Below are positions 1 to 60,507 of a stretch of 64,000 nt of DNA, piece by piece. Below the pieces are notes generated by a model, which saw nothing but the letters and a program-made list of their open reading frames with translations, made no database searches and was not told where the DNA came from. The stretch is taken from assembly GCF_000026545.1 (NCBI RefSeq), contig NC_011601.1. One strand, given 5' to 3'. Position 1 is the stretch's first letter, and each line of letters opens with the position of its first letter. This stretch comes from Escherichia coli O127:H6 str. E2348/69 (GTDB lineage: Bacteria > Pseudomonadota > Gammaproteobacteria > Enterobacterales > Enterobacteriaceae). Both the position numbers and the translations under genes were made by a program.

Positions 1-1448
<1,448 letters not shown>

Positions 1449-1470
1449 CCCTGGCTTATGTGAGGAAGCG

Positions 1471-2013
1471 ATGATTATCTATTTGCACGGTTTTGACTCT
1501 AACAGTCCGGGTAACCACGAGAAAGTCTTACAATTGCAGTTTATTGACCCGGATGTACGGCTAATAAGCTACAGTACGAGGCATCCGAAACATGATATGC
1601 AGCATTTGCTCAAAGAAGTGGACAAAATGTTGCAACTGAACGTCGACGAGCGCCCGCTCATTTGTGGTGTTGGTCTGGGCGGTTATTGGGCTGAGCGGAT
1701 TGGTTTTCTCTGTGATATCCGCCAGGTGATCTTCAACCCTAATTTGTTCCCTTATGAGAACATGGAAGGGAAGATTGATCGCCCGGAAGAGTACGCCGAT
1801 ATTGCCACTAAGTGTGTGACCAACTTCCGTGAGAAGAATCGCGATCGTTGCCTGGTGATTTTGTCGCGTAATGATGAAGCGCTTAACAGCCAGCGGACAT
1901 CTGAAGAGTTGCATCATTATTACGAGATTGTCTGGGACGAAGAGCAGACGCACAAATTCAAGAATATCTCCCCGCATTTACAGCGCATTAAAGCGTTCAA
2001 AACCCTCGGGTAA
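1471..2013 (+). CDS. ycfP: UPF0227 family esterase YcfP
   Basis: Internal ATG of ORF 1414-2013 giving [18 protein letters not shown]... (180 aa); synteny. Confidence 0.9.
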
Positions 2014-6860: not shown

Positions 6861-9800
6861 TCAAGCGATCGCGTTCTCTTCCAGTTCACGCATAAACTGG
6901 CGTACCCATTCGATACGCGTTTTCCGCTCGCTCAAATCCTGAATAAACTTCAGACGCGTCGGACCATCAAGGCGGTAATGCTGCGGCTGTTTTTGCAGCA
7001 AACCAATCAACCAGGCTGGATTAACGTGATTCTTCTCGGCAAATTCGATCACGCCGCCTTTCTCATTACCTTCCAGCTTCCTGATCCCCAGTTTCTGCGC
7101 TTGCTGGCGCAGACGGGCAATATCCAGCAGGGTACGCGCCGGATCCGGCAGCAGGCCGAAGCGATCGATAAGCTCGACTTTGATCTCTTCCAGTTCGTTT
7201 TCCGTTTTGGCGCTGGCAATACGTTTGTAGAACGACAGACGCGTGTTCACGTCAGGGATGAAATCATCTGGCAATAGCGACGGCATCCGCAGCTCGACTT
7301 CTGTTTGCTGGCTGGTGAGATCTTCCAGCGACGGCTCGCGTCCGGCTTTCAGCGCATCGACGGCGTTTTCCAGCAACTCCATATACAGCGAGAAACCGAT
7401 GGTTTCCATTGAGCCGCTTTGTTCTTCGCCAAGCAGTTCACCCGCGCCGCGGATCTCCAGATCGTGCGTTGCCAGCGCAAAACCTGCACCGAGATCTTCC
7501 AGCGAGGCAATCGCTTCAAGACGTTTTTGCGCATCGGTAGTCATCGCTTTTGGATGCGGCGTCAGCAGCCATGCATATGCCTGGTGGTGCGAACGCCCGA
7601 CGCGACCGCGCAACTGGTGCAACTGTGCCAGACCGAAGTGATCCGCACGTTCAATGATAATGGTGTTGGCGGTAGGAATGTCGATCCCGGTTTCGATAAT
7701 GGTGGTACAAACCAGCACGTTGAAACGTTGATGATGGAAATCATTCATCACCCGTTCCAGTTCGCGCTCACGCATTTGCCCGTGACCGATAGCAATCCGC
7801 GCTTCAGGTACCAGTTCTGCCAGCCGTTCGGCGGCTTTCTGGATGTTTTCCACATCATTGTAGAGATAATAAACCTGTCCTCCGCGCAAAATTTCACGCA
7901 GGATCGCCTCCCGGACCACCAGACTGTCATACTCACGGACAAAGGTTTTAACTGCCAGACGACGGGCGGGCGGCGTGGCGATAATCGACAGATCGCGCAT
8001 TCCGCTCATTGCCATATTCAGCGTACGTGGGATCGGCGTTGCGGTAAGCGTCAGAATATCCACGTTCGCGCGCATCGCTTTAATGCGCTCTTTATGACGT
8101 ACCCCGAAGCGGTGTTCTTCATCGACAATCAGCAGGCCTAAATCTTTAAACTTGACGTCACTTTGCAGCAGTTTGTGCGTACCGATCAGAATATCAATTT
8201 TCCCTTCCGCCACTTCCGCAAGGATTTGCGTCTGCTCTTTGGCGCTGCGGAAACGGGAGATCATTTCGATACGTACCGGCCAGTTGGCGAAACGGTCGCG
8301 GAAGTTGTCGTAATGCTGCTGCGCGAGAAGGGTGGTAGGCACCAGCACCGCCACCTGTTTGTGGTTATCTACCGCCAGGAAAGCGGCGCGCATCGCCACT
8401 TCTGTTTTACCAAAGCCAACATCGCCGCACACCAGACGATCCATTGCCAGCGGCTGACACATGTCGCTAAGCACCGCATTAATGGCTTGAGCCTGATCCG
8501 GCGTGGTTTCAAACGGGAAGCTGTCGCAGAATAACTGATACTGCTCACGATCGTGTTTAAACGCGAAGCCCTCTTTGGCGGCGCGTTGCGCGTAGATATC
8601 CAGCAATTCCGCCGCCACATCACGCACTTTTTCCGCCGCTTTCTGCCGTGCGCGTGACCAGGCATCGCCACCAAGTTTATGCAGTGGTGCGTTTTCTTCT
8701 GCGCCACCCGCGTAACGGCTAATCAGATGCAGTGACGACACCGGAACATACAGTTTGGCGTCGTTGGCATAGGTGAGCATCAAATACTCGCCAGTAATGC
8801 CTCCAGCTTCGAGCGTGGTCATTCCGGCATAACGACCGACGCCGTGCTCCAGATGGACCACCGGCTGACCAATATGCAGCTCCGCAAGGTTACGGATCAG
8901 TGTATCGGGGTTGATGGCGCGGCGAGAATCCTGACGACGACGGGCAACGCGTTCACCGAGCAGATCGCTTTCGCAAATCAGCGCCAGATTACGTACCGTA
9001 TCGACAAAACCATGCTCTGCAGCGCCAATCATCAGATAACGCCCACGGTCGCTGGCTTCATCAAGACGCATAATGCGTTGCGGAGCAATTTTAATTCGCG
9101 CGAGCAGTTCACCCAACGCTTCACGGCGGCCTTCACTTTCTACCGAGAACACCACCGGACCGTCGAAAGACTCGAGGAACTTACGCAGCGCATCCAGCGG
9201 CGCTTTTTGTTGTGCCTGAATGGCCAGGTCTGGCAGTTTCTGGAAACCTAAATTGGCATTCGCTGCTTTTGTCGGTAAATGTTCAGTTTTTAGCTGCACA
9301 CGGGGCCAGTTTTTCAGCTCTGAGAAGAGCTCATCCACCCGCAGCCAGAGCGATTGTGGTGGCAACAGTGGGCGCATTGGGTCGACACCGCGATTCTCAA
9401 AACGCGCGAGCGTGTCAGCCTGGAAACGTTCGGCACTGTTTTCCAGATCGCCAGTATTTACCAGCAGCGTATTGGCAGGGAAATAACTGAACAGTGGCGG
9501 CAGCGGTTCGCTGAAGAATAGTGGCTGCCAGTACTCGATCCCGGCAGGTAATGTGCCTTTACTCACTTGCTGGTAAATATGTTCCGGATCGCGCTTCACT
9601 TCGAAGGTATCACGCCACTGGCTGCGGAACAGTTCAATTGCCGCTTTATCGGTCGGAAATTCGTGCGCGGGCAGCAGATTGATCGCATCTACTTCCTCCA
9701 GCGTGCGCTGGCTATCGACGTCAAACACCCGCAGGCTGTCGATTTCATCATCAAAGAAATCAAGACGATAAGGCAGCTCACTCCCCATAGGGAAGAGATC

Positions 9801-21546: not shown

Positions 21547-24018
21547 TTAAAAATCAGCCTGATTCGGGATCAGTTTTTGCCAGATAGCTGAAACGTATTT
21601 TGCCTGGTGACGAGCGTCATCAAGTGCATTATGGCGCTCACCTTCGAATGGAATAGCCGTTCTGGCATCGAAGTCTATGGCTTTCCCCAGCTCAACGATT
21701 GTGCGTACATCGCGATCGTTGTAGTAACGCCACGGGCAGGGGATCCCCTGCCGTTCGTATGAACGGCGCAAAATCGTGTTGTCGAAGTTGGCTCCATTTC
21801 CCCAAACCTGAACAAAAAATTCACCGGAGTTTTCGTCGATAAATTCCCGCAATTGTAACAGTGCATCATCTAACGGGATTTCATCGGTCATAATGGCAGA
21901 TTGCGCTTCGCGTGATTGCTTAAGCCACCATTTAATGGTGTCCCGATCAATGACTCCGCCAGCAGTTTCCAGATCGATAGTCTTACTAAATTCCGGTCCC
22001 ATATCTCCGGTTTGCGGATCGAAAAATATTGCACCTATTGAGATGATCGGGGCATCAGGATTTTTTCCCATGGTTTCAAGGTCGATCATTAGATGGTCAC
22101 ACGTCCTGCTGGTGGATGTGATTTCGTGATGACCGTTCACCTTAATTGAGTGATCTGCCGTCTCGCCAGTCTCATTATCGCTATTGTGATGCTGATTGCC
22201 GCCAGTGTTCTCCTTGTGTGGATGCTCAGCGCCTTCCATTTCCTCCGGATCATCTTCCTGAACTTCAACCTGATACTCTTCATCGAATGTTTCCTGGTAT
22301 GTTGCGTCGCCCATCACCGCACCACAATCAGGGCAGTTGCCGCCGCCGGTCTGACCGCAGGCGGTGCAGACTTTTTCCACTTCCTGTTGCACTACTGGTT
22401 CAGGTAGTTTCGTTTCTGGCTCGTTTTGTTGCGTATTTGGGCTGTTTTGTTCCGCTTTCTGGTCGTTCTGTTCCGTTTCTTGCTGGTTCTGGTTCACAGA
22501 ATCGCGGGTTTCAATCCCCTTCACCCATTTCGGATCATTCGGATCGCTAATCCCTGCAACAAATTCACCACGTGATACTGCAAGCAGTTCATCGGCGTCA
22601 GGCTGGCTGATATTGGCTGCCTGCATAATTTTGTTTACTTCGTCAGCGGTAACTTTTACCGGCCCTGGTTGTGCGGTCGTGTCAGATGCACCAGTATTTT
22701 GTTGTGAACCTGAGTATGTACCGTTTTTGCGGGCGAAATATTCTTCTTTCGTGATTTCAGTAGCCCCTGCAGCCAGTGCCTTATCCAGACCAGAAAGTTT
22801 GTTTGCGCGACCGTATTTTTCGCTATCCTTGTCGGTGAAGAGGAAGTAGAACGGCCCTTCACGCTCTACAGATGGTTCGACTTCCACTTTGCATTCGGTT
22901 TTTTCGTTGTCCGGAATTGCCGTTTCCACTGCATCAGTTTCTGGTACTGGCGACGAGAGAGTATCAGTTGCGCTCTGATTTGTTCCTTCATCTTCAAACA
23001 CGCCCTTTGTAGTCAGGTATTCAGTAATGTATTTGTTCAGTGCCACAGGGTCTTTGTGAATGTCGATCGGACGTTCACGGACAAGGCCAAAAATAGTCTG
23101 GCGGTCGTAGCGAAGGGCATCAGGCTGTTTGCGCATTGATGCCGAGATACGCTTCCAGTCTTCGCGGTAGTTGTCGATAACTTCATTTTTTGCCCAGCGA
23201 TGGATGCTGCCGTCAATGTTTCCGGCATCCACATCACCAGGCCAGAGAGCGTAGGCCAGTTCGTCATCCAGTGTTTTCCATGTCTGCTTGTATTCGCGAT
23301 GAGTGGCAGCAATGACCGGGCTGATTTTTCCTGTTGAATTTTCAGTGTTCTGTTGATTGGCTCTGGCGCGGGCGAGATCAACAACAGACGTGTATTTTCC
23401 GGTTTCCTTGCGTTCACCTTCGCGACGTTTTTTCCAGATGCGCATCTCTGCCTGAATTTCGGGCCATTTGGCACCAGGCTTACATTTATGCTTAACCCAC
23501 CCGATGGCATGCAGCTTAAGCTCCGGATACATGGCGTTAACTTCTGGCATTTTCATCAACGCTTCAACGATATGTCCGTCGAATGTTGCCATGTCTTCCT
23601 GCAACAATTCCTGTGCGCTAATCACCATATCAACGGTGATGTTTTCACATGTGTCGAACTTAACCATGACAGCGTTCTGTACTTCAGGGGCCAGCTTGTC
23701 AAAAGTGACGTTCATCGGATCGGATTCAGTCTCAACCGGGACAAAAGAAGCAGAATCCTCATCCCAGCGGTTTTCCTGCATATATTCAGCATCCCATGAA
23801 TCGAGGGCAGGGCGGGGTATGCCAGGTTTATCCTCGCAGACAATAAATTTATAAGCGCAGTCCTGAGCAGCCGGATAATGTTCCAGGAATTGCCAGTGAA
23901 ATTTTGCTCGAGCACGGCGTTCGTCGCCAGCTTCAATGGCTGTGGCTACAGCCACAGCGCCTTCTTCCCTTGTTGCCAGTTCGTCAGGAATAGCGGCGCA
24001 AATAAAGACTTTACTCAT
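21547..24018 (-). CDS. RecE-like protein with C-terminal DEDDh-type 3'-5' exonuclease domain
   Basis: Segment LLAVSRGEFVAGISDPNDPKWVKGIETRDSVNQNQ resembles RecE (exonuclease VIII) as recalled; acidic linker; C-terminal DLETMG...NGANFD...HNALDDARH DnaQ-like motifs. Confidence 0.7.
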   Translation of the reverse strand: MSKVFICAAIPDELATREEGAVAVATAIEAGDERRARAKFHWQFLEHYPAAQDCAYKFIVCEDKPGIPRPALDSWDAEYMQENRWDEDSASFVPVETESDPMNVTFDKLAPEVQNAVMVKFDTCENITVDMVISAQELLQEDMATFDGHIVEALMKMPEVNAMYPELKLHAIGWVKHKCKPGAKWPEIQAEMRIWKKRREGERKETGKYTSVVDLARARANQQNTENSTGKISPVIAATHREYKQTWKTLDDELAYALWPGDVDAGNIDGSIHRWAKNEVIDNYREDWKRISASMRKQPDALRYDRQTIFGLVRERPIDIHKDPVALNKYITEYLTTKGVFEDEGTNQSATDTLSSPVPETDAVETAIPDNEKTECKVEVEPSVEREGPFYFLFTDKDSEKYGRANKLSGLDKALAAGATEITKEEYFARKNGTYSGSQQNTGASDTTAQPGPVKVTADEVNKIMQAANISQPDADELLAVSRGEFVAGISDPNDPKWVKGIETRDSVNQNQQETEQNDQKAEQNSPNTQQNEPETKLPEPVVQQEVEKVCTACGQTGGGNCPDCGAVMGDATYQETFDEEYQVEVQEDDPEEMEGAEHPHKENTGGNQHHNSDNETGETADHSIKVNGHHEITSTSRTCDHLMIDLETMGKNPDAPIISIGAIFFDPQTGDMGPEFSKTIDLETAGGVIDRDTIKWWLKQSREAQSAIMTDEIPLDDALLQLREFIDENSGEFFVQVWGNGANFDNTILRRSYERQGIPCPWRYYNDRDVRTIVELGKAIDFDARTAIPFEGERHNALDDARHQAKYVSAIWQKLIPNQADF

Positions 24019-25312
24019 TTGTTTTAACCTCATGACAGATTTAAGGATGAACAAATCCCTGCCATTGCTGGCATATAAGAATGAAACCGGATATTTATTA
24101 CGGAACTGTTTTAAAGACCTGCCGGGATTTCGATATTATCCTGGTGAATAACTTTATCGACCGGGTAACAGTTACCGGGAATTTTCTGTTCGGTTGCTGC
24201 AGTCATACACTACTGCATTGTCCTGTGAACACTGACTGCAATATCAACTGGCTCTCCGGAAACAAGAAAAACTGTCAGAACAAGCACAAATGCTGAATTC
24301 ATTGTGCACATCCTTTTGGCATCAGACGTAAACGAGCCAGCATTGAAACAATGCATATTTTATTTAATAGCTCCCGTTCTTGTTTTCTCTTGTTAATGGC
24401 ATCTTCAGTAAATACTGGGTTACTGATAGTGACACCAATTTCAAAACAACCTTCAGACGTATTAACGTTTGGTAATAACGTTTTCATTATCGCGTCCTCA
24501 ACAATGAATTTTGTGATGCAGTGCCTGGTGCCTCCAGGTGACGTTAACCAGTTAACAATTAACGCCGGATACAGAGAATCCACCCATAACACTGTTTTTG
24601 GTTTTAACTGTTCCGCGTGCGCTCAGCCGCATTCACCACATCACAAAATTCACTTTAAAAAGGGCGGCAGAGCAGTCACGGAGTAAAACTGATACCGCCA
24701 AACGTCACCAGAAAATTGATAACAGAGGGCGTTGCAGCGGGGTTGTCACTTAAGCGTATGGTCAACCTGACAACCCGGTGTCCTCAACGGGGGAAGGAAT
24801 AACCCCGCCATACTTACCGCCGCGCCATTTCGCGGATTGCCACAACCGGAAGCGCACGGTCGACGAAAATTTAACGACAGGCTATCTATGAACCAGCTAC
24901 CTCGCCGTGCGCTTTCGCGTTATGGTCTGACTTTTCAGGGAAATATCCTTTCAGTAAACTGTCAGTGCCGGATGCTCACCCGTGTCCGGCGCACGCACTC
25001 CACCTCATCCGTGGAGAACTCCTTAATTACCAACCTTAGCTTCGTTGGTTAGCTATTAACGCGGGTATGTAATCATTCTGGCAATGCTTAATGTCGCTGC
25101 TTTTTCCAGATTAGTGATATCCTGCTCCAGAGCGGACAGATTTTCAGCCTGCTTAGCCCTGGCTTCATTGGCCCATTTCAGATCCTGCGCTGCATTAATT
25201 TTCTGGCGCATCCACTCATAAAGTTCATCATCGGTATAGTCTGGCGCGATGATGACGGGTTCTCGTTTCTGCATACTGATTCCTCGCGGTGCTGTTTCGC
25301 TTATCAGCCGTT

Positions 25313-25780: not shown

Positions 25781-26188
25781 TTATTGATGTTTGTTACGTT
25801 TGCGAGCTTCTAGTAGCTCGGTGAATAGGCGATTAAAATTCTCAACGCGGGCACGGAGTTCGCTGATTTGTGCTTGCTGCTCTGATTTTGGAAGTGCGCG
25901 ATACAATCGCAACATCTCCAACTCATCTTCCGATAAGTCTAAGGCGCTGTTGAGTGCAACTGGTGGATCTGGTGTTTTATCCTCGTCACCAAACAGTATC
26001 CAAGTTGGTGAACATTGCAATACCTCAGCCAGGCGATGCAAATTTTGCCCGCGCGGGGCTGTATGGTCGCTTTCCCATAGTGAAATTGATGAGCCAGATA
26101 CGCCAGCAGCTTTGCTTAAATCGTTTTGACTTAAACCAACCTGTTTGCGTCTTTCTCTAATTCGTTGACCTAAAGTTTTCTCGTTCAT
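25781..26188 (-). CDS. Prophage repressor, XRE-family HTH (RacR/CI-like), no S24 peptidase domain
   Basis: 135 aa; N-terminal HTH (LGQRIRERRKQVGLSQNDLSKAAGVSGSSISLWE); divergent from the cro-like gene. Confidence 0.8.
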   Translation of the reverse strand: MNEKTLGQRIRERRKQVGLSQNDLSKAAGVSGSSISLWESDHTAPRGQNLHRLAEVLQCSPTWILFGDEDKTPDPPVALNSALDLSEDELEMLRLYRALPKSEQQAQISELRARVENFNRLFTELLEARKRNKHQ

Positions 26189-33117: not shown

Positions 33118-33371
33118 CTATGAATTATTATATTGTAAAGTAATCAGGTAAGATATGTTAGACAGTGAGACTATTGCCTTACAGAATTCATTATTCTTAT
33201 GGATCGCCTTTCTGACTGATTTCATATTGGCGGGGTAACGGGAGTTAAGTAGAATGGCTGCGGGTGCTTGAGGCTATCTGTCTCAGGCATGAACACCAAA
33301 GGCAGATAGAGAAAAGCCCCAGTTAACATTACGCGTCCTGCAAGACGCTTAACATTAATCTGAGGCCAATT

Positions 33372-34460
33372 TCATGCTAGACACATGTAGGTTAGCCTCT
33401 TACGTGCCGGAAGGCAAGGAGATGTATGGGTCCACCACATATTGCAATTTTTATTCTCTTTTAAAATATATTCCACGGGCGTCATTAGTGCGAGCGCCTT
33501 GTGGGGTCTTTTGCTGTTATACAGCACCAGATATTCCGCCAGCTTCTGGTTAAATAGCGCCAGATCTTCAAAGAGTAAAATCTCATTAAATTCAATAAAC
33601 TGCTCTCTTAACGTCCGGTTAAAACGTTCACAGATAGCGTTCATTTTTGGCGTGTAGGGATAGGTCCAGAGGTGTTTGATAGCGGCTTCCTGCAGCGTTT
33701 TGTCGAAGTTTCCCAGGAACTCTTTTCCGTTATCTGTGATTATCTGGCTGATACCGACCGGGAACAACCGGGCTGCGCGGCTGAAGAAGTGATTGACGAT
33801 ATCACTGTTGAGTGACGGCACAGCCAGCGCCAGCGCGTAATTGCTGCATTCGTCGATCATGGTGATGACATAGCGACGCAGTTCGCCCATTCTGAGCTCA
33901 ATGGCGTCCATCCCAATGAGCTCACCTGTCTTTACCGGGCGGTAGTGCTTTGGCCTGCGGGGTTTGGCAGACCGCTTTTTGACAAGCAGTGCCTTCCCCC
34001 GCGATCCCAGACGCACAGGTATCATCCGCATTTTATCATGTGCGGCAGCGATCATTCTGCCGATGGTGGAAACACTCGGACAGGCCAGATAGCGCTGTTC
34101 GCACCAGGGCTTCAGGCGAACAAAAATCTGCTCTTTACCGAGGTTCGGCAGCTCTGTCCTGAGGCGTCGAATCTCTTTCAGCACATCGGGATGCCAGTGT
34201 TTTTTTCGTCGCACCAGAGGTGCCTTACTGTGCGGGATTAGCCCCTCAGGTCCTTCCTTGTTCAGTAACTGACGCCACCAGTAAAGCGTGCGGCAGGACA
34301 CGCCAAAGGCTTCAGAAGCTGCAGAAATACCGTGTTTATCCCAGAAGTGCAGAGCCTTCATTCTCATTGTTGCTATATCAGCCATCACTGAAAGCCTCAA
34401 CGCATAATCGGCCGTTTGGTAGTACTTAGGATAGCCAACCATCAGATGCTGCATTTGCAT
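33372..34460 (-). CDS. IS481-family DDE transposase (integrase-core/rve domain)
   Basis: 362 aa; N-terminal HTH (...CRTLYWWRQ...), DDE core, C-terminal ...YNSKRPHKALALMTPVEY typical of rve transposases. Confidence 0.7.
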   Translation of the reverse strand: MQMQHLMVGYPKYYQTADYALRLSVMADIATMRMKALHFWDKHGISAASEAFGVSCRTLYWWRQLLNKEGPEGLIPHSKAPLVRRKKHWHPDVLKEIRRLRTELPNLGKEQIFVRLKPWCEQRYLACPSVSTIGRMIAAAHDKMRMIPVRLGSRGKALLVKKRSAKPRRPKHYRPVKTGELIGMDAIELRMGELRRYVITMIDECSNYALALAVPSLNSDIVNHFFSRAARLFPVGISQIITDNGKEFLGNFDKTLQEAAIKHLWTYPYTPKMNAICERFNRTLREQFIEFNEILLFEDLALFNQKLAEYLVLYNSKRPHKALALMTPVEYILKENKNCNMWWTHTSPCLPARKRLTYMCLA

Positions 34461-39237: not shown

Positions 39238-39313
39238 GGCCCTTTAGCTCAGTGGTGAGAGCGAGCGACTCATAATCGCCAGGTCGCTGGTTCAAATCCA
39301 GCAAGGGCCACCA
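39238..39313 (+). tRNA. ileZ: tRNA with CAU anticodon, Ile2-like (ileZ-type of lambdoid phages)
   Basis: Hand-folded cloverleaf: acceptor GGCCCTT/AAGGGCC, D-arm GCTC..GAGC, anticodon loop CTCATAA, T-arm GCTGG TTCAAAT CCAGC, CCA end; resembles E. coli tRNA-Ile2 as recalled. Confidence 0.85.
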
Positions 39314-39410: not shown

Positions 39411-39487
39411 GCGTTGTTAGCTCAGCCGGACAGAGCAATTGCCTTCTAAGCAATCGGTCACTGGTTCGAATCCAGTACAACGCGCCA
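39411..39487 (+). tRNA. argO: tRNA-Arg (anticodon UCU)
   Basis: Cloverleaf: acceptor GCGTTGT/ACAACGC, anticodon stem ATTGC/GCAAT with loop CTTCTAA, T-arm ACTGG TTCGAAT CCAGT, CCA end. Confidence 0.9.
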
Positions 39488-39951: not shown

Positions 39952-40979
39952 ATACATATCTGGATTATCACCTGTTACGGTAAAAAGTGATTGCTTACTG
40001 TTTTTGTGAATGGCATTGCAGCAGCCGGATAATGTCAGTGCTGGCTGACTGTGTACTGGTGGCGGGTGTGGTGGTTGTTGCTTTCCCGTTGCTGAAAAAG
40101 AAAACGCCAGACTGTTAGCCGGAGAAATTTTTAAATACTTCACAATTCAGGCGGTTGACTGTTGTCTGGTTTGCGGGGAGTTTGTTAAAAGAAACTGGCA
40201 TGGTGAATCCACCTGTGCGGAGGGGCAATCAGCGAGTAGGTATATGGGATAATCGCGGATTCAGGTGCTGGTACTGAATTCACCGGGAGGCACCCGGCAC
40301 CATGCAATGGCACATAGCGCCACTCTCCAGCCCCTCTCCGGAGGGGCTGTTTATATTGATTTTGTCAGATGTGAGTAAACTCCTTATGGACTTTGTTGTT
40401 TTAGTCCATAAGGACATATTTGCAGAGTGCAACGGTTATTAAAGCATTCATTCAATACGTTATCTGTATTTGTAGGGCATTCCTGGCTGTTTTTGATTAA
40501 ATTCCAGAATGTTTTATTGAATGGTACTACGTTGTAAATGGTTACAGGTAGCACTTTGTTATTGAGCATGATACCTGTGTGAGTCAGTGTAAATATACTT
40601 TCAGGAGGTAAGAAAGCATCCGATTGATACCAGATTATTAATTTTATTTTACTCCATATGACTGAAAAAGATATTCCGCATGATGGCTGGATAACTGTAT
40701 CAATCACAATCCACTTCATTTAGTTTCCTTGTTTATGCCTTGCTGGTGATGTTCTGAAAAGTATAAATGATATTTTTGATTGTAAACCATAGAGCAGAAT
40801 TATTTTTCTGATGTTGTTTATTGTTTATTTAAATGCAGGGTGGTTTATATCTCGTCTTGTAGTTTATCCATGCATATCTGCTTGATGATGAGGTTTTTAT
40901 TTAAGGTATGGTTTTGTGTTTTTTCTGTATTACATGTCAGGTATTTTAAAGAATTATTTTTCAGATGGTGGAAAGAACC

Positions 40980-43085: not shown

Positions 43086-44663
43086 CCCCCAGCTAGGCTC
43101 TGTCTCTTATACACAAATCCCCACCCGGGGATTTGTGATGTCTGTCAGTCTGCTTTAGGGGGACTCTTTCCATCCGGTAGTTTCCTTCCTCCCCGGCAGC
43201 GATTTTTTGAACTTTTTCCTCACCCGTTGATCTTCTCTTATATTTCATTTTCTTCGGGTCTGTTATGGTACTTTCTGATTGTTATTCATGGGCTAACGAG
43301 CAGTTTGGACATGCCCGTCTCGGTGATCCGCGTCGTACACGACGCCTTGTGTCACTGGCCTCTTCTCTCGCTCAGCATGCAGGTCTTTCTATTGTGAAAT
43401 CATCCCAGTCCACTGCTCAGGTTGAAGGTGCGTACCGCCTGATACGTAACCCGTCTGTGTCCCCGCAAGCCATTGCCGAAGCCGGATTTACCGCCACTGT
43501 AAGGGCATGTGAGGCTCATCCGCTGCTCCTCGCGCTGGAAGACACCACCACCATTAACTTCAGTCACAGTACGGCATCTGATGACCTGGGGAATACCACC
43601 ACTAACCCGAAGACGCGCGGGCTGCTGGCTCACTCTGTCCTGATGTACGCCCCCGACAGCGCCCTGCCAGTCGGTCTTATCGAACAGCAGCGCTGGAGTC
43701 GTGCCACGGACACCTACGGTGTTAAGCACCAGCGAAAAGAACGTCCCTATGAAGAAAAAGAAAGTTACCGCTGGCAGCAGGCTTCGGAGCGCATGGCCGA
43801 ACGGCTGGGGGAGATACAGAAACGGGTAATCACTGTCTGTGACCGGGAAGCGGATATCTGGCATTACCTGCATTATAAAGTCAGCCACGGGCAGCGCTTC
43901 GTGGTGCGTGCAGCACAGAATCGCCGGCTGGAAGAAGCACCCGGCAAGCTCTTCGAACTGCCGGAAGTCCTGGCAACCGCGGGAAGCCACACGCTGAATG
44001 TGATGCAAAAAGGCGGGCGGGCAGCCCGCCAGGCCCGGATGTTCATCAGTTACAGCGAAGTCAGCATAAAAAATCCCGACAACAGCGGCCAGGCGCTCCC
44101 GCTCACGTATGTCTGTTGCCGGGAGCAGGCAGAGGACGGCGCCTGCTGGCATCTGCTGACGTCAGAAAAAGTGGCGAGTGCCGCCGATGCGCGACGTATC
44201 GTCAGCCATTACGAGCGACGCTGGCTGATAGAGGAATACCACAAGGCGTGGAAAAGTGGTGGTACATGTGTGGAATCGCTGCGAATGCAGACCCGGGATA
44301 ACCTCGAGCGCATGGTGGTTATCAAGGCGTTTATCGCGGTGCGGGTGCTGGGCCTGCGGCAGGGCGGTATCAGTGAAGAAACACAAAATGACAGCTGTGA
44401 GAAAATACTGACGCCGACAGAGTGGAAACTGCTGTGGGTTAAGCTGGAAGGAAAACCGCTTCCGTCACAGATGCCGACACTGAAATGGGCCTGTCTGAAA
44501 CTGGCGAAACTGGGGCGATGGCATGACAGCAAACGCACCGGTCGCCCCGGTTGGGTAGTCATGTGGGATGGCTGGTTCAGACTTCAGGATATGGTTGAGG
44601 GTTACCTGGTGATGAAGTCTCTTGATCAGGAGATCTGATCAAGAGACAGAGCTAGGCTGGGGG
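43086..44663 (+). mobile_element. IS4-family (IS50-like) insertion sequence
   Basis: Imperfect terminal inverted repeats CCCCCAGCTAGGCTCTGTCTCTT (43086) and revcomp of aagagacagagctaggctggggg (44639-44663), containing the CTGTCTCTT motif of IS50 ends; Tn5-Tnp-like transposase inside. Confidence 0.8.
43265..44638 (+). CDS. IS50-like DDE transposase
   Basis: 457 aa, colinear with Tn5 transposase as recalled (LGDPRRTRRLV..., ...YERRWLIEEYHKAWKSG..., ...NLERMV...). Confidence 0.85.
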   Translation: MVLSDCYSWANEQFGHARLGDPRRTRRLVSLASSLAQHAGLSIVKSSQSTAQVEGAYRLIRNPSVSPQAIAEAGFTATVRACEAHPLLLALEDTTTINFSHSTASDDLGNTTTNPKTRGLLAHSVLMYAPDSALPVGLIEQQRWSRATDTYGVKHQRKERPYEEKESYRWQQASERMAERLGEIQKRVITVCDREADIWHYLHYKVSHGQRFVVRAAQNRRLEEAPGKLFELPEVLATAGSHTLNVMQKGGRAARQARMFISYSEVSIKNPDNSGQALPLTYVCCREQAEDGACWHLLTSEKVASAADARRIVSHYERRWLIEEYHKAWKSGGTCVESLRMQTRDNLERMVVIKAFIAVRVLGLRQGGISEETQNDSCEKILTPTEWKLLWVKLEGKPLPSQMPTLKWACLKLAKLGRWHDSKRTGRPGWVVMWDGWFRLQDMVEGYLVMKSLDQEI

Positions 44664-59952: not shown

Positions 59953-60507
59953 CGGACCATAACAATTTATAATCTGCTGGCCGGAACTAATGAATTTATT
60001 GGTGAAGGTGACGCATATATTCCGCCTCATACAGGTCTGCCAGCAAACAGTACCGATATTGCACCACCAGATATTCCTGCTGGCTTTGTGGCTGTTTTCA
60101 ACAGTGATGAGGCATCGTGGCATCTCGTTGAAGACCATCGGGGTAAAACGGTTTATGACGTAGCGTCAGGGGACGAGTTATTTATTTCTGAACTCGGTCC
60201 GTTACCGGAAAATGTTACCTGGTTATCGCCGGAAGGGGAGTTTCAGAAGTGGAACGGCACAGCCTGGGTGAAAGATGCAGAAGCAGAAAAACTGTTCCGG
60301 ATCCGGGAGGCGGAAGAAACAAAAAACAACCTGATGCAGGTAGCCAGTGAGCATATTGCGCCACTTCAGGATGCGGTAGATCTGGAAATCGCAACGGAGG
60401 AAGAAAACTCGTTGCTGGAAGCCTGGAAGAAGTATCGGGTGTTGCTGAACCGTGTTGATACATCAACTGCACCTGATATTGAGTGGCCGACTTCACCTGC
60501 AGAGTAA
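59953..60507 (+). pseudogene. tfa: Tail fibre assembly protein (tfa) lacking its first codons and start
   Basis: [87 protein letters not shown]... colinear with lambda Tfa from about residue 10; homology ends abruptly at the IS2 remnant. Confidence 0.8.

What the first reader, a model, noticed from the sequence alone, without database searches (positions are those of the whole stretch)
24600..25055. About 450 bp without convincing coding potential to the left of the immunity region
Between the small ORFs left of the repressor there is a GC-rich stretch with several hairpins (for example accaacc...ggttggt at 25028-25050) and no ORF with a plausible start/RBS. This is the region where lambdoid phages place nutL/tL-type RNA elements, so it may encode regulatory RNA structure.
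Basis: inference. Interest (0 to 1): 0.25.

Follow-up and report, generated by a model that had tools for sequence, protein, structure and literature searches.

The report
DicF small RNA and its leader
The "empty" stretch is the known untranslated region of the prophage dicBF operon that carries the cell-division-blocking small RNA DicF, and the ~200 bases in front of DicF form a conserved folded RNA that appears to be undescribed.

Summary
The interval is the untranslated ydfC–dicB segment of a Qin-type lambdoid prophage early-left (dicBF) operon, read on the minus strand. It is about 98% identical to E. coli K-12 Qin.

DicF lies at 24714..24662. Rfam scores it 76.7 bits against a gathering score of 48, and it is identical to K-12 dicF. 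Its own hairpin and U-run form the only good intrinsic terminator in the operon. A 21-bp long-range stem (24654–24634 / 24523–24503) fits the published RNase III site.

No ORF in the interval behaves like a gene. The reading "regulatory RNA here" is right, but the element is DicF, which is already known, and it is not a nutL site.

One thing goes beyond the literature I could reach. The ~195 nt 5′ of DicF (24925–24731) are a covarying structure: a ~20-bp stem followed by three hairpins with a pseudoknot. The structure has no Rfam family. It is shared by many N-less lambdoid phages and by the phage P1 Pban leader. It is more widely conserved than DicF itself, and a variable "seed" plus a terminator almost always follow it.

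Its function is unknown. My best guess is that it controls read-through or processing at that terminator.

The parts
25056..25274 (-). ydfC (72 aa), the last immediate-early ORF. It forms the right boundary of the untranslated region.
   Evidence: Annotated ydfC in the 100%-identical record and in K-12. Matches phrog_1744 at E 2.7e-39.
24926..25055 (-). Promoter-proximal part of the UTR. It also holds a 10-codon ORF behind a UAAGGAG Shine-Dalgarno-like string.
   Evidence: Inverted repeats I9-I13. Recombination breakpoints at about 24935, 24995, 25013 and 25035. In K-12 the hairpin is broken and the ATG is GTG.
24840..24925 (-). Stem A. The 5' arm is 24925-24905 (CCAUAACGCGAAAGCGCACGG) and the 3' arm is 24859-24840 (CCGUGCGCUUCCGGUUGUGG). 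The 45-nt loop (24904-24860) varies among phages.
   Evidence: 13-nt inverted repeat I1. Duplex energy is -22 to -38 kcal/mol in 58 distinct arm pairs with type-specific compensatory arms. Cognate arms average -20.7 and non-cognate arms -15.9. 97.6% of cells pair, and 6 of 19 pairs change on both sides against 1.7±1.0 in shuffles.
24741..24835 (-). Pseudoknotted three-hairpin domain. P1 is 24835-24831 / 24824-24820. P2a is 24819-24816 / 24779-24776. P2 is 24807-24803 / 24792-24788, of variable sequence with a pyrimidine-rich loop. P3 is 24775-24768 / 24748-24741, with an invariant 19-nt loop. The pseudoknot is GUAUGG 24813-24808 with CCAUAC 24761-24756.
   Evidence: Alignments A3, A4 and A5. 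94-96.5% of cells pair against 32-59% when partners are slid. 9-13 pairs change on both sides against 3-5 in shuffles, 0 of 500 shuffles reaching the observed value. The pseudoknot pair changes U-A to C-G in 4 distinct P1-type sequences. No Rfam match at E<=5.
24731..24737 (-). CUGCAAC, a second possible partner for GUUGUGG (24846-24840). It duplicates the base of the stem A 5' arm. The boundary between the conserved domain and the variable cassette lies just after it.
   Evidence: All variants (CCACAAC, CUACAAC, CCAUAAC, CCACAAU, CCACGAC) keep pairing by transitions only. It is absent from P1-type copies, which also lack stem A.
24715..24730 (-). Single-stranded spacer that ends at the AU-rich junction AUCAAU|UUUCUGG, where the DicF 5' end is made.
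   Evidence: The position of the K-12 dicF 5' end was mapped onto the window. RNase E dependence comes from Faubladier 1990 as cited in PMC5069750 and PMC9438474.
24662..24714 (-). dicF, the 53-nt Hfq-dependent small RNA that represses ftsZ, xylR, pykA and manX.
   Evidence: Rfam RF00039 scores 76.7 bits against a gathering score of 48, full length. Identical to K-12 dicF. Annotated DicF in phage Tritos.
24657..24699 (-). Intrinsic terminator that belongs to DicF. The hairpin is 24699-24663 and the U5 run is 24661-24657.
   Evidence: Rfam structure line and the fold. It is the only convincing intrinsic terminator on the minus strand between the repressor and the integrase-like ORF (which missed this one only because its loop is longer than the scan allows).
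24503..24654 (-). Long-range hairpin in the dicF-dicB spacer, closed by a 21-bp stem (24654-24634 with 24523-24503). It is the presumed RNase III site that gives the 72-nt DicF species, whose 3' end would fall at about 24643.
   Evidence: Fold with z = -3.26. Literature on the 72-nt species. Sub-threshold resemblance to Rfam STnc100, 34.4 bits against a gathering score of 47.
24299..24487 (-). dicB (62 aa), the first gene after the terminator.
   Evidence: Pfam PF05358 at E 1.9e-40. NCBIfam NF049927.

Best explanation
**What it is.** The interval is the long untranslated region of the early-left operon (ydfA-ydfB-ydfC-dicF-dicB-ydfD-exo-xis-int) of a Qin-like lambdoid prophage, transcribed leftward on the minus strand.

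**DicF, shown here or in the literature.**
- The region encodes DicF at 24714..24662.
- DicF's 3' end is made either by termination at its own hairpin and U-run, or by RNase III cleavage in the 21-bp stem just downstream.
- Its 5' end is made by RNase E at the AU-rich junction 24715|24714.
- The released sRNA acts in trans with Hfq to block translation of ftsZ and other mRNAs.

**The terminator as a gate (inferred).** The same terminator separates ydfABC from dicB, the exonuclease, xis and int. This is the role tL1 plays in lambda.

**The conserved leader, shown here.** The ~195 nt 5' of DicF are not a passive spacer. They fold into a ~20-bp stem (24925-24840) followed by three hairpins tied by a pseudoknot (24835-24741).

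**What the leader does (inferred, about 40% for this specific role).** It is a cis-acting module that lets RNA polymerase read through the DicF terminator. That would make it a functional counterpart of nutL/N or HK022 put in phages that lack an N gene. The long stem would also serve as a processing or insulation site that frees the domain from the upstream mRNA.
For: **Identity.**
- Rfam DicF hit above the gathering score.
- DicB, DUF1391/YdfA, YdfB and YdfC flank it.
- 98% identity and the same spacing as K-12 Qin.
- At least 80% of the 1.1-kb locus is present in 2955 of 5426 complete E. coli genomes.

**Structured leader.**
- Covariation supports it.
- It is conserved across otherwise unrelated early regions: cdtI, Ayreon, 2H10, Stx2c phages, Salmonella phage F1055, pPE4 and P1/P7.
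- There is one copy per contig.

**More widespread than DicF.** The Rfam DicF model reaches its gathering score in only 1 of 12 core-bearing loci of other types. It finds nothing at E<=0.1 in the 4 annotated phage loci tested.

**Link to a terminator.**
- In 31 of 32 representatives, 10-60 variable nt and an intrinsic terminator follow the domain.
- In P1 the domain starts at the Pban transcription start and sits before a terminator that precedes the tRNAs, tciA and (from memory) ban.
- This is the only good terminator between pL and the integrase-like ORF in the window.
- No N gene was found in any of the contexts examined.

**Experimental hint.** When the chromosomal operon is induced, DicF is not detectable and toxicity is due to DicB. 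A plasmid that starts at dicF makes abundant DicF (PMC5069750).
Against: - Nothing here tests function directly.
- The domain has no sequence or covariance-model similarity to HK022 putL or putR, or to the HK639 putL-like RNA.
- It has no twin in the rightward operon.
- In the window it lies about 950 nt from pL, not next to it.
- Constant adjacency to a seed-plus-terminator cassette fits an sRNA-biogenesis role equally well.
- The Northern result could reflect poor processing or instability, not read-through.
- Much of the covariation comes from a few lineages, and alignments A4 and A5 were fitted to the model.
- Helices P1 and P2a hardly vary.
Confidence: 0.85

Rival explanations
1. The conserved leader is a processing and stability scaffold with no effect on transcription. 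RNase III cuts stem A and the downstream 21-bp stem, which excises a domain-plus-DicF precursor from the polycistronic mRNA. The folded domain then positions or limits RNase E so that a defined DicF 5' end is made. It could also protect the 3' end of the ydfABC mRNA.
For: - Two duplexes of about 20 bp flank the unit.
- The published DicF 5' end lies 16 nt after the domain.
- At least 8 different seed-plus-terminator cassettes follow the same domain, with the mosaic joint right after CCACAAC.
- P1-type copies start at the transcription start and lack stem A. That fits a stem needed only to remove upstream RNA.
Against: - In P1-type copies almost no seed lies between the domain and the terminator, so there is little sRNA to mature.
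- One locus (L107) keeps the domain but is followed by a Shine-Dalgarno sequence and an ORF, with no cassette.
- An invariant 19-nt loop and a pseudoknot are more elaborate than known RNase E or RNase III determinants (my own knowledge).
Confidence: 0.3
2. The leader is a switchable attenuator. GUUGUGG (24846-24840) pairs either with the upstream CAUAAC (the base of stem A) or with the downstream CUGCAAC (24737-24731). A ligand, a protein or translation of ydfC chooses between the two, and that choice sets whether the terminator forms.
For: - Two near-identical partners exist for one strand, and both tolerate only pairing-compatible transitions.
- Both features are missing together in P1-type copies.
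- The minimum-energy fold of domain plus DicF pairs GGCGGUAAGUAUGGCGGGG with the 3' half of the terminator. It scores -76.3 kcal/mol, against -66.9 for the conserved fold plus terminator, with roughly -5.9 more for the pseudoknot.
Against: - No covariation links either strand to the terminator. CCGCCAC versus CCACCAC does not track UGGCGG versus UGGUGG.
- The terminator hairpin is local and would fold first.
- No Rfam riboswitch matches.
Confidence: 0.12
3. The region is an N-dependent nutL site followed by a tL terminator, as in lambda.
For: - The position is right: left of the repressor, in the early-left operon, just before its terminator.
- A string upstream of the domain, GUGCUCUCUUCG or AUGCUCUUUCCG in relatives, resembles boxA (the boxA consensus is from memory).
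Against: - No N-like gene is present.
- No boxB-type hairpin was seen.
- The boxA-like string is the 3' arm of stem A and covaries with its partner.
Confidence: 0.02
4. The interval holds a small protein gene. Candidates are the 54-aa ORF at 24888..25052(+), which PGAP sometimes annotates as WP_001331716.1, and the phrog_8854-like ORF at 24762..24857(-).
For: - PGAP calls the 54-aa ORF in some genomes.
- The 31-aa ORF matches phrog_8854 at E 6e-19.
- Phage annotators call 'hypothetical proteins' here.
Against: - Third codon positions show no excess of change (21/16/13), one homologue has an internal stop, and mosaic breakpoints lie inside the 54-aa ORF.
- K-12 differs by a 1-nt indel inside the minus-strand ORF.
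- Spacing across hairpin P2 falls in all three frames.
- Neither ORF has a Pfam or NCBIfam match.
Confidence: 0.02

Closest known systems
DicF sRNA (Rfam RF00039) in the dicBF operon of E. coli K-12 prophage Qin
   Same: Same gene. The 53 nt are identical. The neighbours are the same (ydfA, ydfB, ydfC upstream; dicB, ydfD downstream), as are the 340-nt and 174-nt spacers.
   Different: Nothing of substance differs. There are a few substitutions and a 1-nt indel in the leader, and ydfD carries an internal stop in the identical record.
HK022 putL/putR and the HK639 'putL-like antiterminator RNA' (cis-acting RNAs that make RNA polymerase terminator-resistant in N-less lambdoid phages)
   Same: All are folded RNAs of about 70-130 nt in an early operon, upstream of its terminators, in phages without N. 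The P1 copy sits at the very 5' end of its transcript, as putL does.
   Different: There is no sequence or covariance-model similarity. The architecture differs: a long stem plus three hairpins and a pseudoknot, against two stem-loops. There is a single copy with no rightward-operon twin. The 9-mer and 8-mer shared with putL are not conserved in putR, so they are probably chance.
Lambda nutL / N / tL1
   Same: The position and logic match: an RNA element and a terminator that separate immediate-early from delayed-early leftward genes (inference).
   Different: There is no N gene, no boxB and no genuine boxA.
sRNAs cut from inside operons or from mRNA 3' ends (SroC, CpxQ, SdhX)
   Same: DicF is the founding example. 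Early intrinsic termination plus RNase E trimming yields the sRNA (PMC9438474).
   Different: Those reviewed in PMC9438474 are not described with a large covarying pseudoknotted domain immediately 5' of the sRNA (and my own knowledge).
Rfam STnc100 (RF02076)
   Same: The dicF-dicB hairpin aligns with the whole STnc100 model, including its closing stem and the CACCnGGAGGCACCnGGCAC hairpin. A true STnc100 lies at 40169-40358.
   Different: It scores 34.4 bits, below the gathering score of 47, so I do not file it as a member. The same sub-threshold resemblance recurs in P1 and pPE4.

Membership tests
DicF (Rfam RF00039) | Covariance-model score at or above the family's gathering score, over the full length | tested here: met
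   76.7 bits against 48, model positions 1-52 of 52, at 24713..24662(-).
DicF (Rfam RF00039) | Lies between ydfC and dicB in a dicA/dicC-type immunity region | tested here: met
   Flanking genes identified by Pfam, NCBIfam, PHROGs and by annotation of identical and K-12 records.
DicF (Rfam RF00039) | 3' hairpin followed by a U-run (intrinsic terminator and Hfq-type 3' end) | tested here: met
   Hairpin 24699-24663 and U5 run 24661-24657.
DicF (Rfam RF00039) | Same sequence as the characterised K-12 RNA, and therefore the same seed regions | tested here: met
   No differences from K-12 across dicF in alignment A1.
DicF (Rfam RF00039) | RNase E and RNase III dependent maturation, Hfq binding and repression of ftsZ | not testable with these tools
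   Taken from the literature on K-12. Not measured for this strain.
put-type antiterminator RNA (HK022 putL/putR, HK639 putL-like) | Sequence or structure-profile similarity to known put RNAs | tested here: not met
   blastn-short gives only chance-level words. Covariance model R1 finds nothing at E<=10 in the HK022 loci, and nothing at the HK639 putL-like site even with filters off, where the best hit elsewhere scores 10 bits.
put-type antiterminator RNA (HK022 putL/putR, HK639 putL-like) | Two stem-loops of about 70 nt | tested here: not met
   Here there is a ~20-bp stem plus three hairpins and a pseudoknot, about 195 nt in all. The put description is from PMC9378689.
put-type antiterminator RNA (HK022 putL/putR, HK639 putL-like) | One copy in each early operon (L and R) | tested here: not met
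   A single hit per window or contig in 179 contigs.
put-type antiterminator RNA (HK022 putL/putR, HK639 putL-like) | Upstream of the operon's terminators in a phage that lacks N | tested here: met
put-type antiterminator RNA (HK022 putL/putR, HK639 putL-like) | Suppresses termination in cis and depends on the beta-prime zinc-binding domain | not testable with these tools
   Needs in vitro transcription and rpoC mutants.
nut site (lambda-type, N-dependent) | boxA plus a boxB hairpin, with an N gene in the same operon | tested here: not met
   No N gene. The boxA-like string is a covarying stem arm.
Protein-coding gene | Reading frame preserved, with changes concentrated at third codon positions | tested here: not met
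   also the 1-nt indel against K-12.
STnc100 (Rfam RF02076), for the dicF-dicB hairpin | Score at or above the gathering score | tested here: not met
   34.4 bits against 47.
tRNA / tmRNA-like element | Recognised by ARAGORN or the Rfam tRNA model | tested here: not met
   No genes found in 24500-25100, and no tRNA hit at E<=5.

The most novel reading that the evidence does not exclude
The ~195-nt covarying structure 5' of DicF is an undescribed class of cis-acting phage leader RNA. It consists of stem A plus a three-hairpin pseudoknot domain with an invariant loop GGUUGACCAUACGCYURAG. It is shared by Qin/Rac-type N-less lambdoid phages and by the P1/P7 Pban leader. On this reading it decides whether RNA polymerase stops at, or passes, the terminator that gates dicB/kil, recombination, xis and int (in P1, the tRNAs and ban). 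It would be a third kind of RNA-based early antitermination or attenuation device, alongside nut/N and put. It would also double as the launch pad for a family of DicF-like sRNAs with swappable seeds.
Probability: 0.35. Interest if true: 0.7.

Novelty: already known. Interest (0 to 1): 0.35.

Why it matters
As originally posed, the finding resolves to a textbook element. DicF is one of the first bacterial small RNAs described, and the stretch around it is already called a long untranslated region. That part is ordinary.

What may matter is the rest of that "spacer". It is a covarying RNA structure that is more widely conserved than DicF itself. It appears at the equivalent early-operon position in many N-less lambdoid phages and at the start of the P1 ban operon, and it has no Rfam family.

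If it controls read-through of the adjacent terminator, it would address two questions:
- how Qin/Rac-type lambdoid phages, which lack N and put, express delayed-early leftward genes;
- why DicF is scarce when the native operon is induced (PMC5069750).

It would also explain spurious "hypothetical proteins" (phrog_8854, WP_001331716.1) that annotation pipelines place on this RNA.

Tried and rejected
1. **A ~100-nt ydfC-dicF gap in K-12.** I recalled this figure and suspected an insertion here. K-12 has the same 340-nt gap.
2. **put homology.** Tested with blastn-short, covariance model R1, and by reading HK022 putL, HK022 putR and the HK639 putL-like RNA. None is related. The words shared with putL (GCGCGGCGG, ACCAUGCG) are not conserved in putR.
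3. **A boxA-like lead.** Replaced by stem A once the upstream partner was found.
4. **My first model, a closed four-way junction with P0 = GUUGUGG/CCACAAC.** This is now uncertain. GUUGUGG sits in the much more stable stem A, and support for P0 is only wobble-compatible variation.
5. **A classical riboswitch expression platform.** I found no covariation between the domain and the terminator halves.
6. **A long-range pairing of GUGCGCUU with GAGCGCAC in the dicF-dicB spacer.** It is not homologous between phage types, so I dropped it.
7. **tRNA-like or tmRNA.** ARAGORN and Rfam were both negative.
9. **The viral scan with RCAGGTTGACCATNCGCNT.** It gave mostly unrelated hits; only 1 of 20 matched the model.
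10. **Stepping outward from the most divergent member (L163).** No new phage groups turned up.
11. **Papers not held and so not read.** Faubladier & Bouché 1994, Łobocka 2004, Murashko 2017 and Melson 2019. Any of them may describe the region upstream of dicF.
Full report
**What is at the coordinates**

On the minus strand the window carries a Qin-type early-left operon:
- an HTH repressor at 25781..26188;
- a DUF1391/YdfA ORF, then YdfB, then YdfC at 25056..25274;
- a 568-nt gap;
- DicB at 24299..24487;
- a DUF1482/YdfD remnant;
- an 835-aa exonuclease;
- ORFs at the positions expected for excisionase and integrase. These two were not tested by homology.

A 1.1-kb stretch around the finding is 100% identical to an E. 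coli chromosome, where these genes are annotated ydfB, ydfC, dicB and ydfD. At least 80% of it is present in 2955 of 5426 complete E. coli genomes. It is about 98% identical to K-12 prophage Qin, which has the same layout: ydfC, 340 nt, dicF (53 nt), 174 nt, dicB.

**The known element**

Rfam places DicF (RF00039) at 24713..24662(-). It scores 76.7 bits against a gathering score of 48, over the full length of the model. The sequence is identical to K-12 dicF, which maps to 24714..24662.

[quoted passage not shown] The DicF 5' end is made by RNase E. Its 3' end is made either by Rho-independent termination (53 nt) or by RNase III (72 nt). The RNA binds Hfq and represses ftsZ, xylR, pykA and manX (PMC5069750 and PMC9438474).

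In the window:
- the terminator hairpin is 24699-24663, followed by U5 at 24661-24657;
- the spacer to dicB folds with z = -3.26 into a structure closed by 21 consecutive base pairs, 24654-24634 with 24523-24503;
- a 72-nt DicF would end at about 24643, inside that duplex, which fits RNase III. This is inference from the published length.

**Checking the observation**

- *Coding.* No ORF in the interval has a Pfam or NCBIfam match.
  - The plus-strand 54-aa ORF that PGAP sometimes calls shows substitutions spread 21/16/13 over codon positions. One homologue has an internal stop, and recombination joints lie inside it.
  - A 31-aa minus-strand ORF matches phrog_8854. However, K-12 differs by a 1-nt indel inside it. 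Across 105 distinct relatives, the distance between invariant anchors on either side of it falls in all three frames: 45, 37 and 23. I take that PHROG to be built on ORF calls over a conserved RNA.
- *GC content.* It is 52% against 50% for the window, and it stands out only against AT-richer flanks.
- *The quoted hairpin.* It has 6 bp, not 7, and it is broken in K-12.

**What else is there**

A distant blastn search with the ydfC-dicF spacer showed that the ~120 nt immediately 5' of DicF are conserved on their own. They occur in phages whose neighbouring genes differ: cdtI, Ayreon, 2H10, Stx2c phages, Salmonella phage F1055, a phage deposited as an Actinobacillus phage, and P1/P7. In P1 the region is annotated "dicF-like region".

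In every case the conserved sequence is on the strand of the early-left operon, downstream of the repressor gene. In P1 it lies directly after the C1-controlled Pban promoter and before a terminator, two tRNA genes and tciA.

The Rfam DicF model does not recognise these other loci:
- none of 4 annotated phage loci at E<=0.1;
- only 1 of 12 further types at the gathering score.

So this upstream sequence is more widely kept than DicF. No Rfam family matches it at E<=5.

**Structure of the pseudoknot domain**

From about 180 instances I derived this fold, in window coordinates on the minus strand:

| Element | 5' strand | 3' strand | Note |
|---|---|---|---|
| P1 | 24835-24831 | 24824-24820 | hairpin |
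| P2a | 24819-24816 | 24779-24776 | short helix |
| P2 | 24807-24803 | 24792-24788 | variable sequence; pyrimidine-rich loop, usually with a CCUU-like motif |
| P3 | 24775-24768 | 24748-24741 | invariant 19-nt loop |
| Pseudoknot | 24813-24808 (GUAUGG) | 24761-24756 (CCAUAC) | joins the P2a internal loop to the P3 loop |

Pair counts on three alignments:

| Alignment (call) | Cells paired | Paired when partners are slid | Pairs changed on both sides | Same, in shuffles |
|---|---|---|---|---|
| A3 (50) | 94.2% | 32-59% | 11 | 3.4 |
| A4 (67) | 96.5% | 32-59% | 9 | 2.9 |
| A5 (89) | 96.3% | 33-58% | 13 | 4.6 |

No shuffle out of 500 reached the observed value in any of the three.

- In A5, six of eight P3 pairs and three of five P2 pairs show compensatory changes. 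P2 examples are CGGGG/CCCCG, CGAGG/CCUCG, CAGGUG/CACCUG, CUGGU/ACCAG and CCCGGG/CCCGGG.
- One pseudoknot pair switches U-A to C-G in four distinct P1-type sequences. The pseudoknot was not part of the model used to build that alignment.

Caveats: A4 and A5 were fitted to the model, P1 and P2a hardly vary, and a few lineages supply much of the signal.

**A second helix: stem A**

The 20 nt just before P1 (24859-24840, CCGUGCGCUUCCGGUUGUGG) pair with 24925-24905 across a 45-nt loop.

- The same hairpin forms in 58 distinct arm combinations, at -22 to -38 kcal/mol. Loops range from 23 to 128 nt and differ in sequence. Arms differ by phage type yet stay complementary:
  - AAGCGCACGG / CCGUGCGCUU
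  - AAGCGCAUUCC / GGAAUGCGCUU
  - UGAGGGCAU / GUGCUCUCA
  - GAGAGCAUUG / CAGUGCUCUC
  - AAGAGCAUUCC / GGAAUGCUCUU
- With the shared GUUGUGG left out, cognate arms pair better than non-cognate arms, at -20.7 against -15.9 kcal/mol on average. The cognate arm ranks first or second of ten in nine of ten cases.
- In 28 sequences that share one register, 97.6% of cells pair, against 20-45% when partners are slid. Six of 19 pairs change on both sides, against 1.7±1.0 in shuffles. The arms were located with RNAduplex and joined by an artificial GAAA, which favours pairing.
- Recombination joints at 24899 and 24902 fall in the loop.

GUUGUGG could instead pair with CUGCAAC at 24737-24731, just after P3. 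That strand varies only by transitions that keep pairing. P1-type copies start at the promoter and lack both stem A and this strand. I first drew this pairing as the closing helix of a four-way junction. Given how stable stem A is, I now treat it as a possible alternative pairing, not as established.

**What follows the domain**

In 31 of 32 representatives the domain is followed by three things:
- 10-60 nt of variable sequence, with at least eight types, DicF being one of them;
- an intrinsic terminator;
- in most lambdoid types, the conserved 5' arm of the RNase III-type hairpin.

There are two oddities. L107 has a Shine-Dalgarno sequence and an ORF directly after the domain, with no terminator. 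pPE4 carries the cassette twice in tandem, so it still counts among the 31. Each contig has one copy of the domain, and there is none in the rightward operon.

**How it most likely works**

Shown here or in the literature:
- DicF and its terminator;
- the RNase III-type stem;
- a conserved, covarying leader.

Inferred:
- The DicF terminator is the only good intrinsic terminator between the repressor and the integrase-like ORF on this strand. It therefore gates dicB, the exonuclease and the two ORFs that follow it.
- None of the phage contexts examined has an N gene.
- Other N-less lambdoid phages use cis-acting RNAs at this position. HK022 has put (PMC9378689), and HK639 carries an annotated 126-nt "putL-like antiterminator RNA". 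For a further N-less phage, the authors can only guess at a put-like mechanism (PMC12315714).
- When the native operon is induced, DicF is undetectable and toxicity comes from DicB. A construct that starts at dicF makes abundant DicF (PMC5069750).

Together these make "the leader promotes read-through of the adjacent terminator" my preferred reading, at about 40%. Its main rival is a pure processing scaffold, at about 30%. That rival is supported by the two flanking ~20-bp duplexes, by the RNase E site 16 nt after the domain, and by the absence of stem A where there is no upstream RNA to remove. A toggling attenuator is possible but lacks covariation with the terminator.

**Comparison with known families**

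- Membership in DicF is met on every feature that could be tested.
- Membership in the put family fails on sequence, on the covariance model, on architecture and on copy number. Any likeness is functional only.
- A nut site is excluded.
- The dicF-dicB hairpin resembles Rfam STnc100 but scores below its gathering score.

**Verdict**

The finding is real, and the stretch is non-coding regulatory RNA. It is the already known DicF locus, so as posed it is ordinary.

The conserved structure in front of DicF is the part worth following up. I found no description of it in Rfam 15 or in the papers I could search. However, four relevant papers were not available. P1's annotators had already noticed the sequence similarity.

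Noticed in passing
window 40169-40358 (+); also window 24455-24664 (-), L008:135-254 (-), L011:1163-1347 (-): A full Rfam STnc100 hit (123.6 bits) lies in the late region, downstream of two tRNA genes. Sub-threshold STnc100-like matches (33-39 bits) recur in the dicF-dicB spacer, before tciA in P1, and in pPE4. STnc100 may be one member of a recurring phage leader or RNase III-type hairpin.
   Followed up: partly
window 33262-33428 (+): Rfam sok antitoxin RNA hit (112 bits against a gathering score of 59), which implies a hok/sok-type toxin-antitoxin locus inside the prophage. The same family appears in related contigs L064 and L091.
   Followed up: no
window 44643-44766 (+), 60269-60467 (+), 39238-39310 (+), 39411-39484 (+): Other Rfam hits above gathering score: STnc490 (Hfq-binding RNA), IS009, and two tRNA genes.
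   Followed up: no
window 24111-24302 (-): ydfD (DUF1482 lysis protein) is annotated as a pseudogene with an internal stop in the 100%-identical E. coli record. In the window only a 48-aa ORF (24210..24356) keeps the DUF1482 match.
   Followed up: partly
window 24762-24857 (-) and 24888-25052 (+): phrog_8854 ('unknown function') and RefSeq WP_001331716.1 ('hypothetical protein') appear to be ORF calls laid over a conserved non-coding RNA. Frame and codon-position tests argue against translation.
   Followed up: yes
window 24794-24802 (-), the P2 loop, and the same loop in relatives: The P2 stem sequence changes freely, but its loop is always pyrimidine-rich with a CCUU/CUCC-like motif that resembles the anti-Shine-Dalgarno sequence. 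I found no conserved partner for it.
   Followed up: partly
window 24983-25028 (-): A strong Shine-Dalgarno-like UAAGGAG is followed 10 nt later by a 10-codon ORF (AUG AGG UGG ... UGA), just after the ydfC stop. In K-12 the AUG is GUG.
   Followed up: no
L011 (Actinobacillus phage vB_Apl-pPE4) about 1160-1500 (-): The DicF-like cassette (from CCGCCACAAC through seed and terminator) is duplicated in tandem. The immunity region of this phage (DicA-like repressor, YdaT, Kil, exonuclease VIII) looks like that of an E. coli lambdoid phage, which is odd for the stated host.
   Followed up: no
L107:2560-2720 (-): The only representative in which the conserved domain is followed directly by a Shine-Dalgarno sequence and an ORF, with no seed-plus-terminator cassette.
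   Followed up: no
L101:5848-6335 (-), L143 and L155: In some related phages Rfam finds isrK and a C4 antisense RNA in the same contig, on the strand of the operon (in L101 they follow the DicF cassette; positions in L143 and L155 were not checked). These early-left operons therefore string several regulatory RNAs together.
   Followed up: no
window 21547-24054 (-): The 835-aa 'exonuclease VIII'-annotated ORF ends in an Rv2179c-like 3'-5' exoribonuclease domain (Pfam PF16473, E 6.8e-68). Most of its N-terminal ~650 aa has no Pfam match.
   Followed up: no
L012 about 7233-7306 (-), HK022 putL: putL shares the 9-mer GCGCGGCGG with the domain here. It also shares ACCAUGCG with the invariant P3 loop of P1-type and F1055-type copies. 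Neither word is conserved in putR, so I judged both to be chance.
   Followed up: yes
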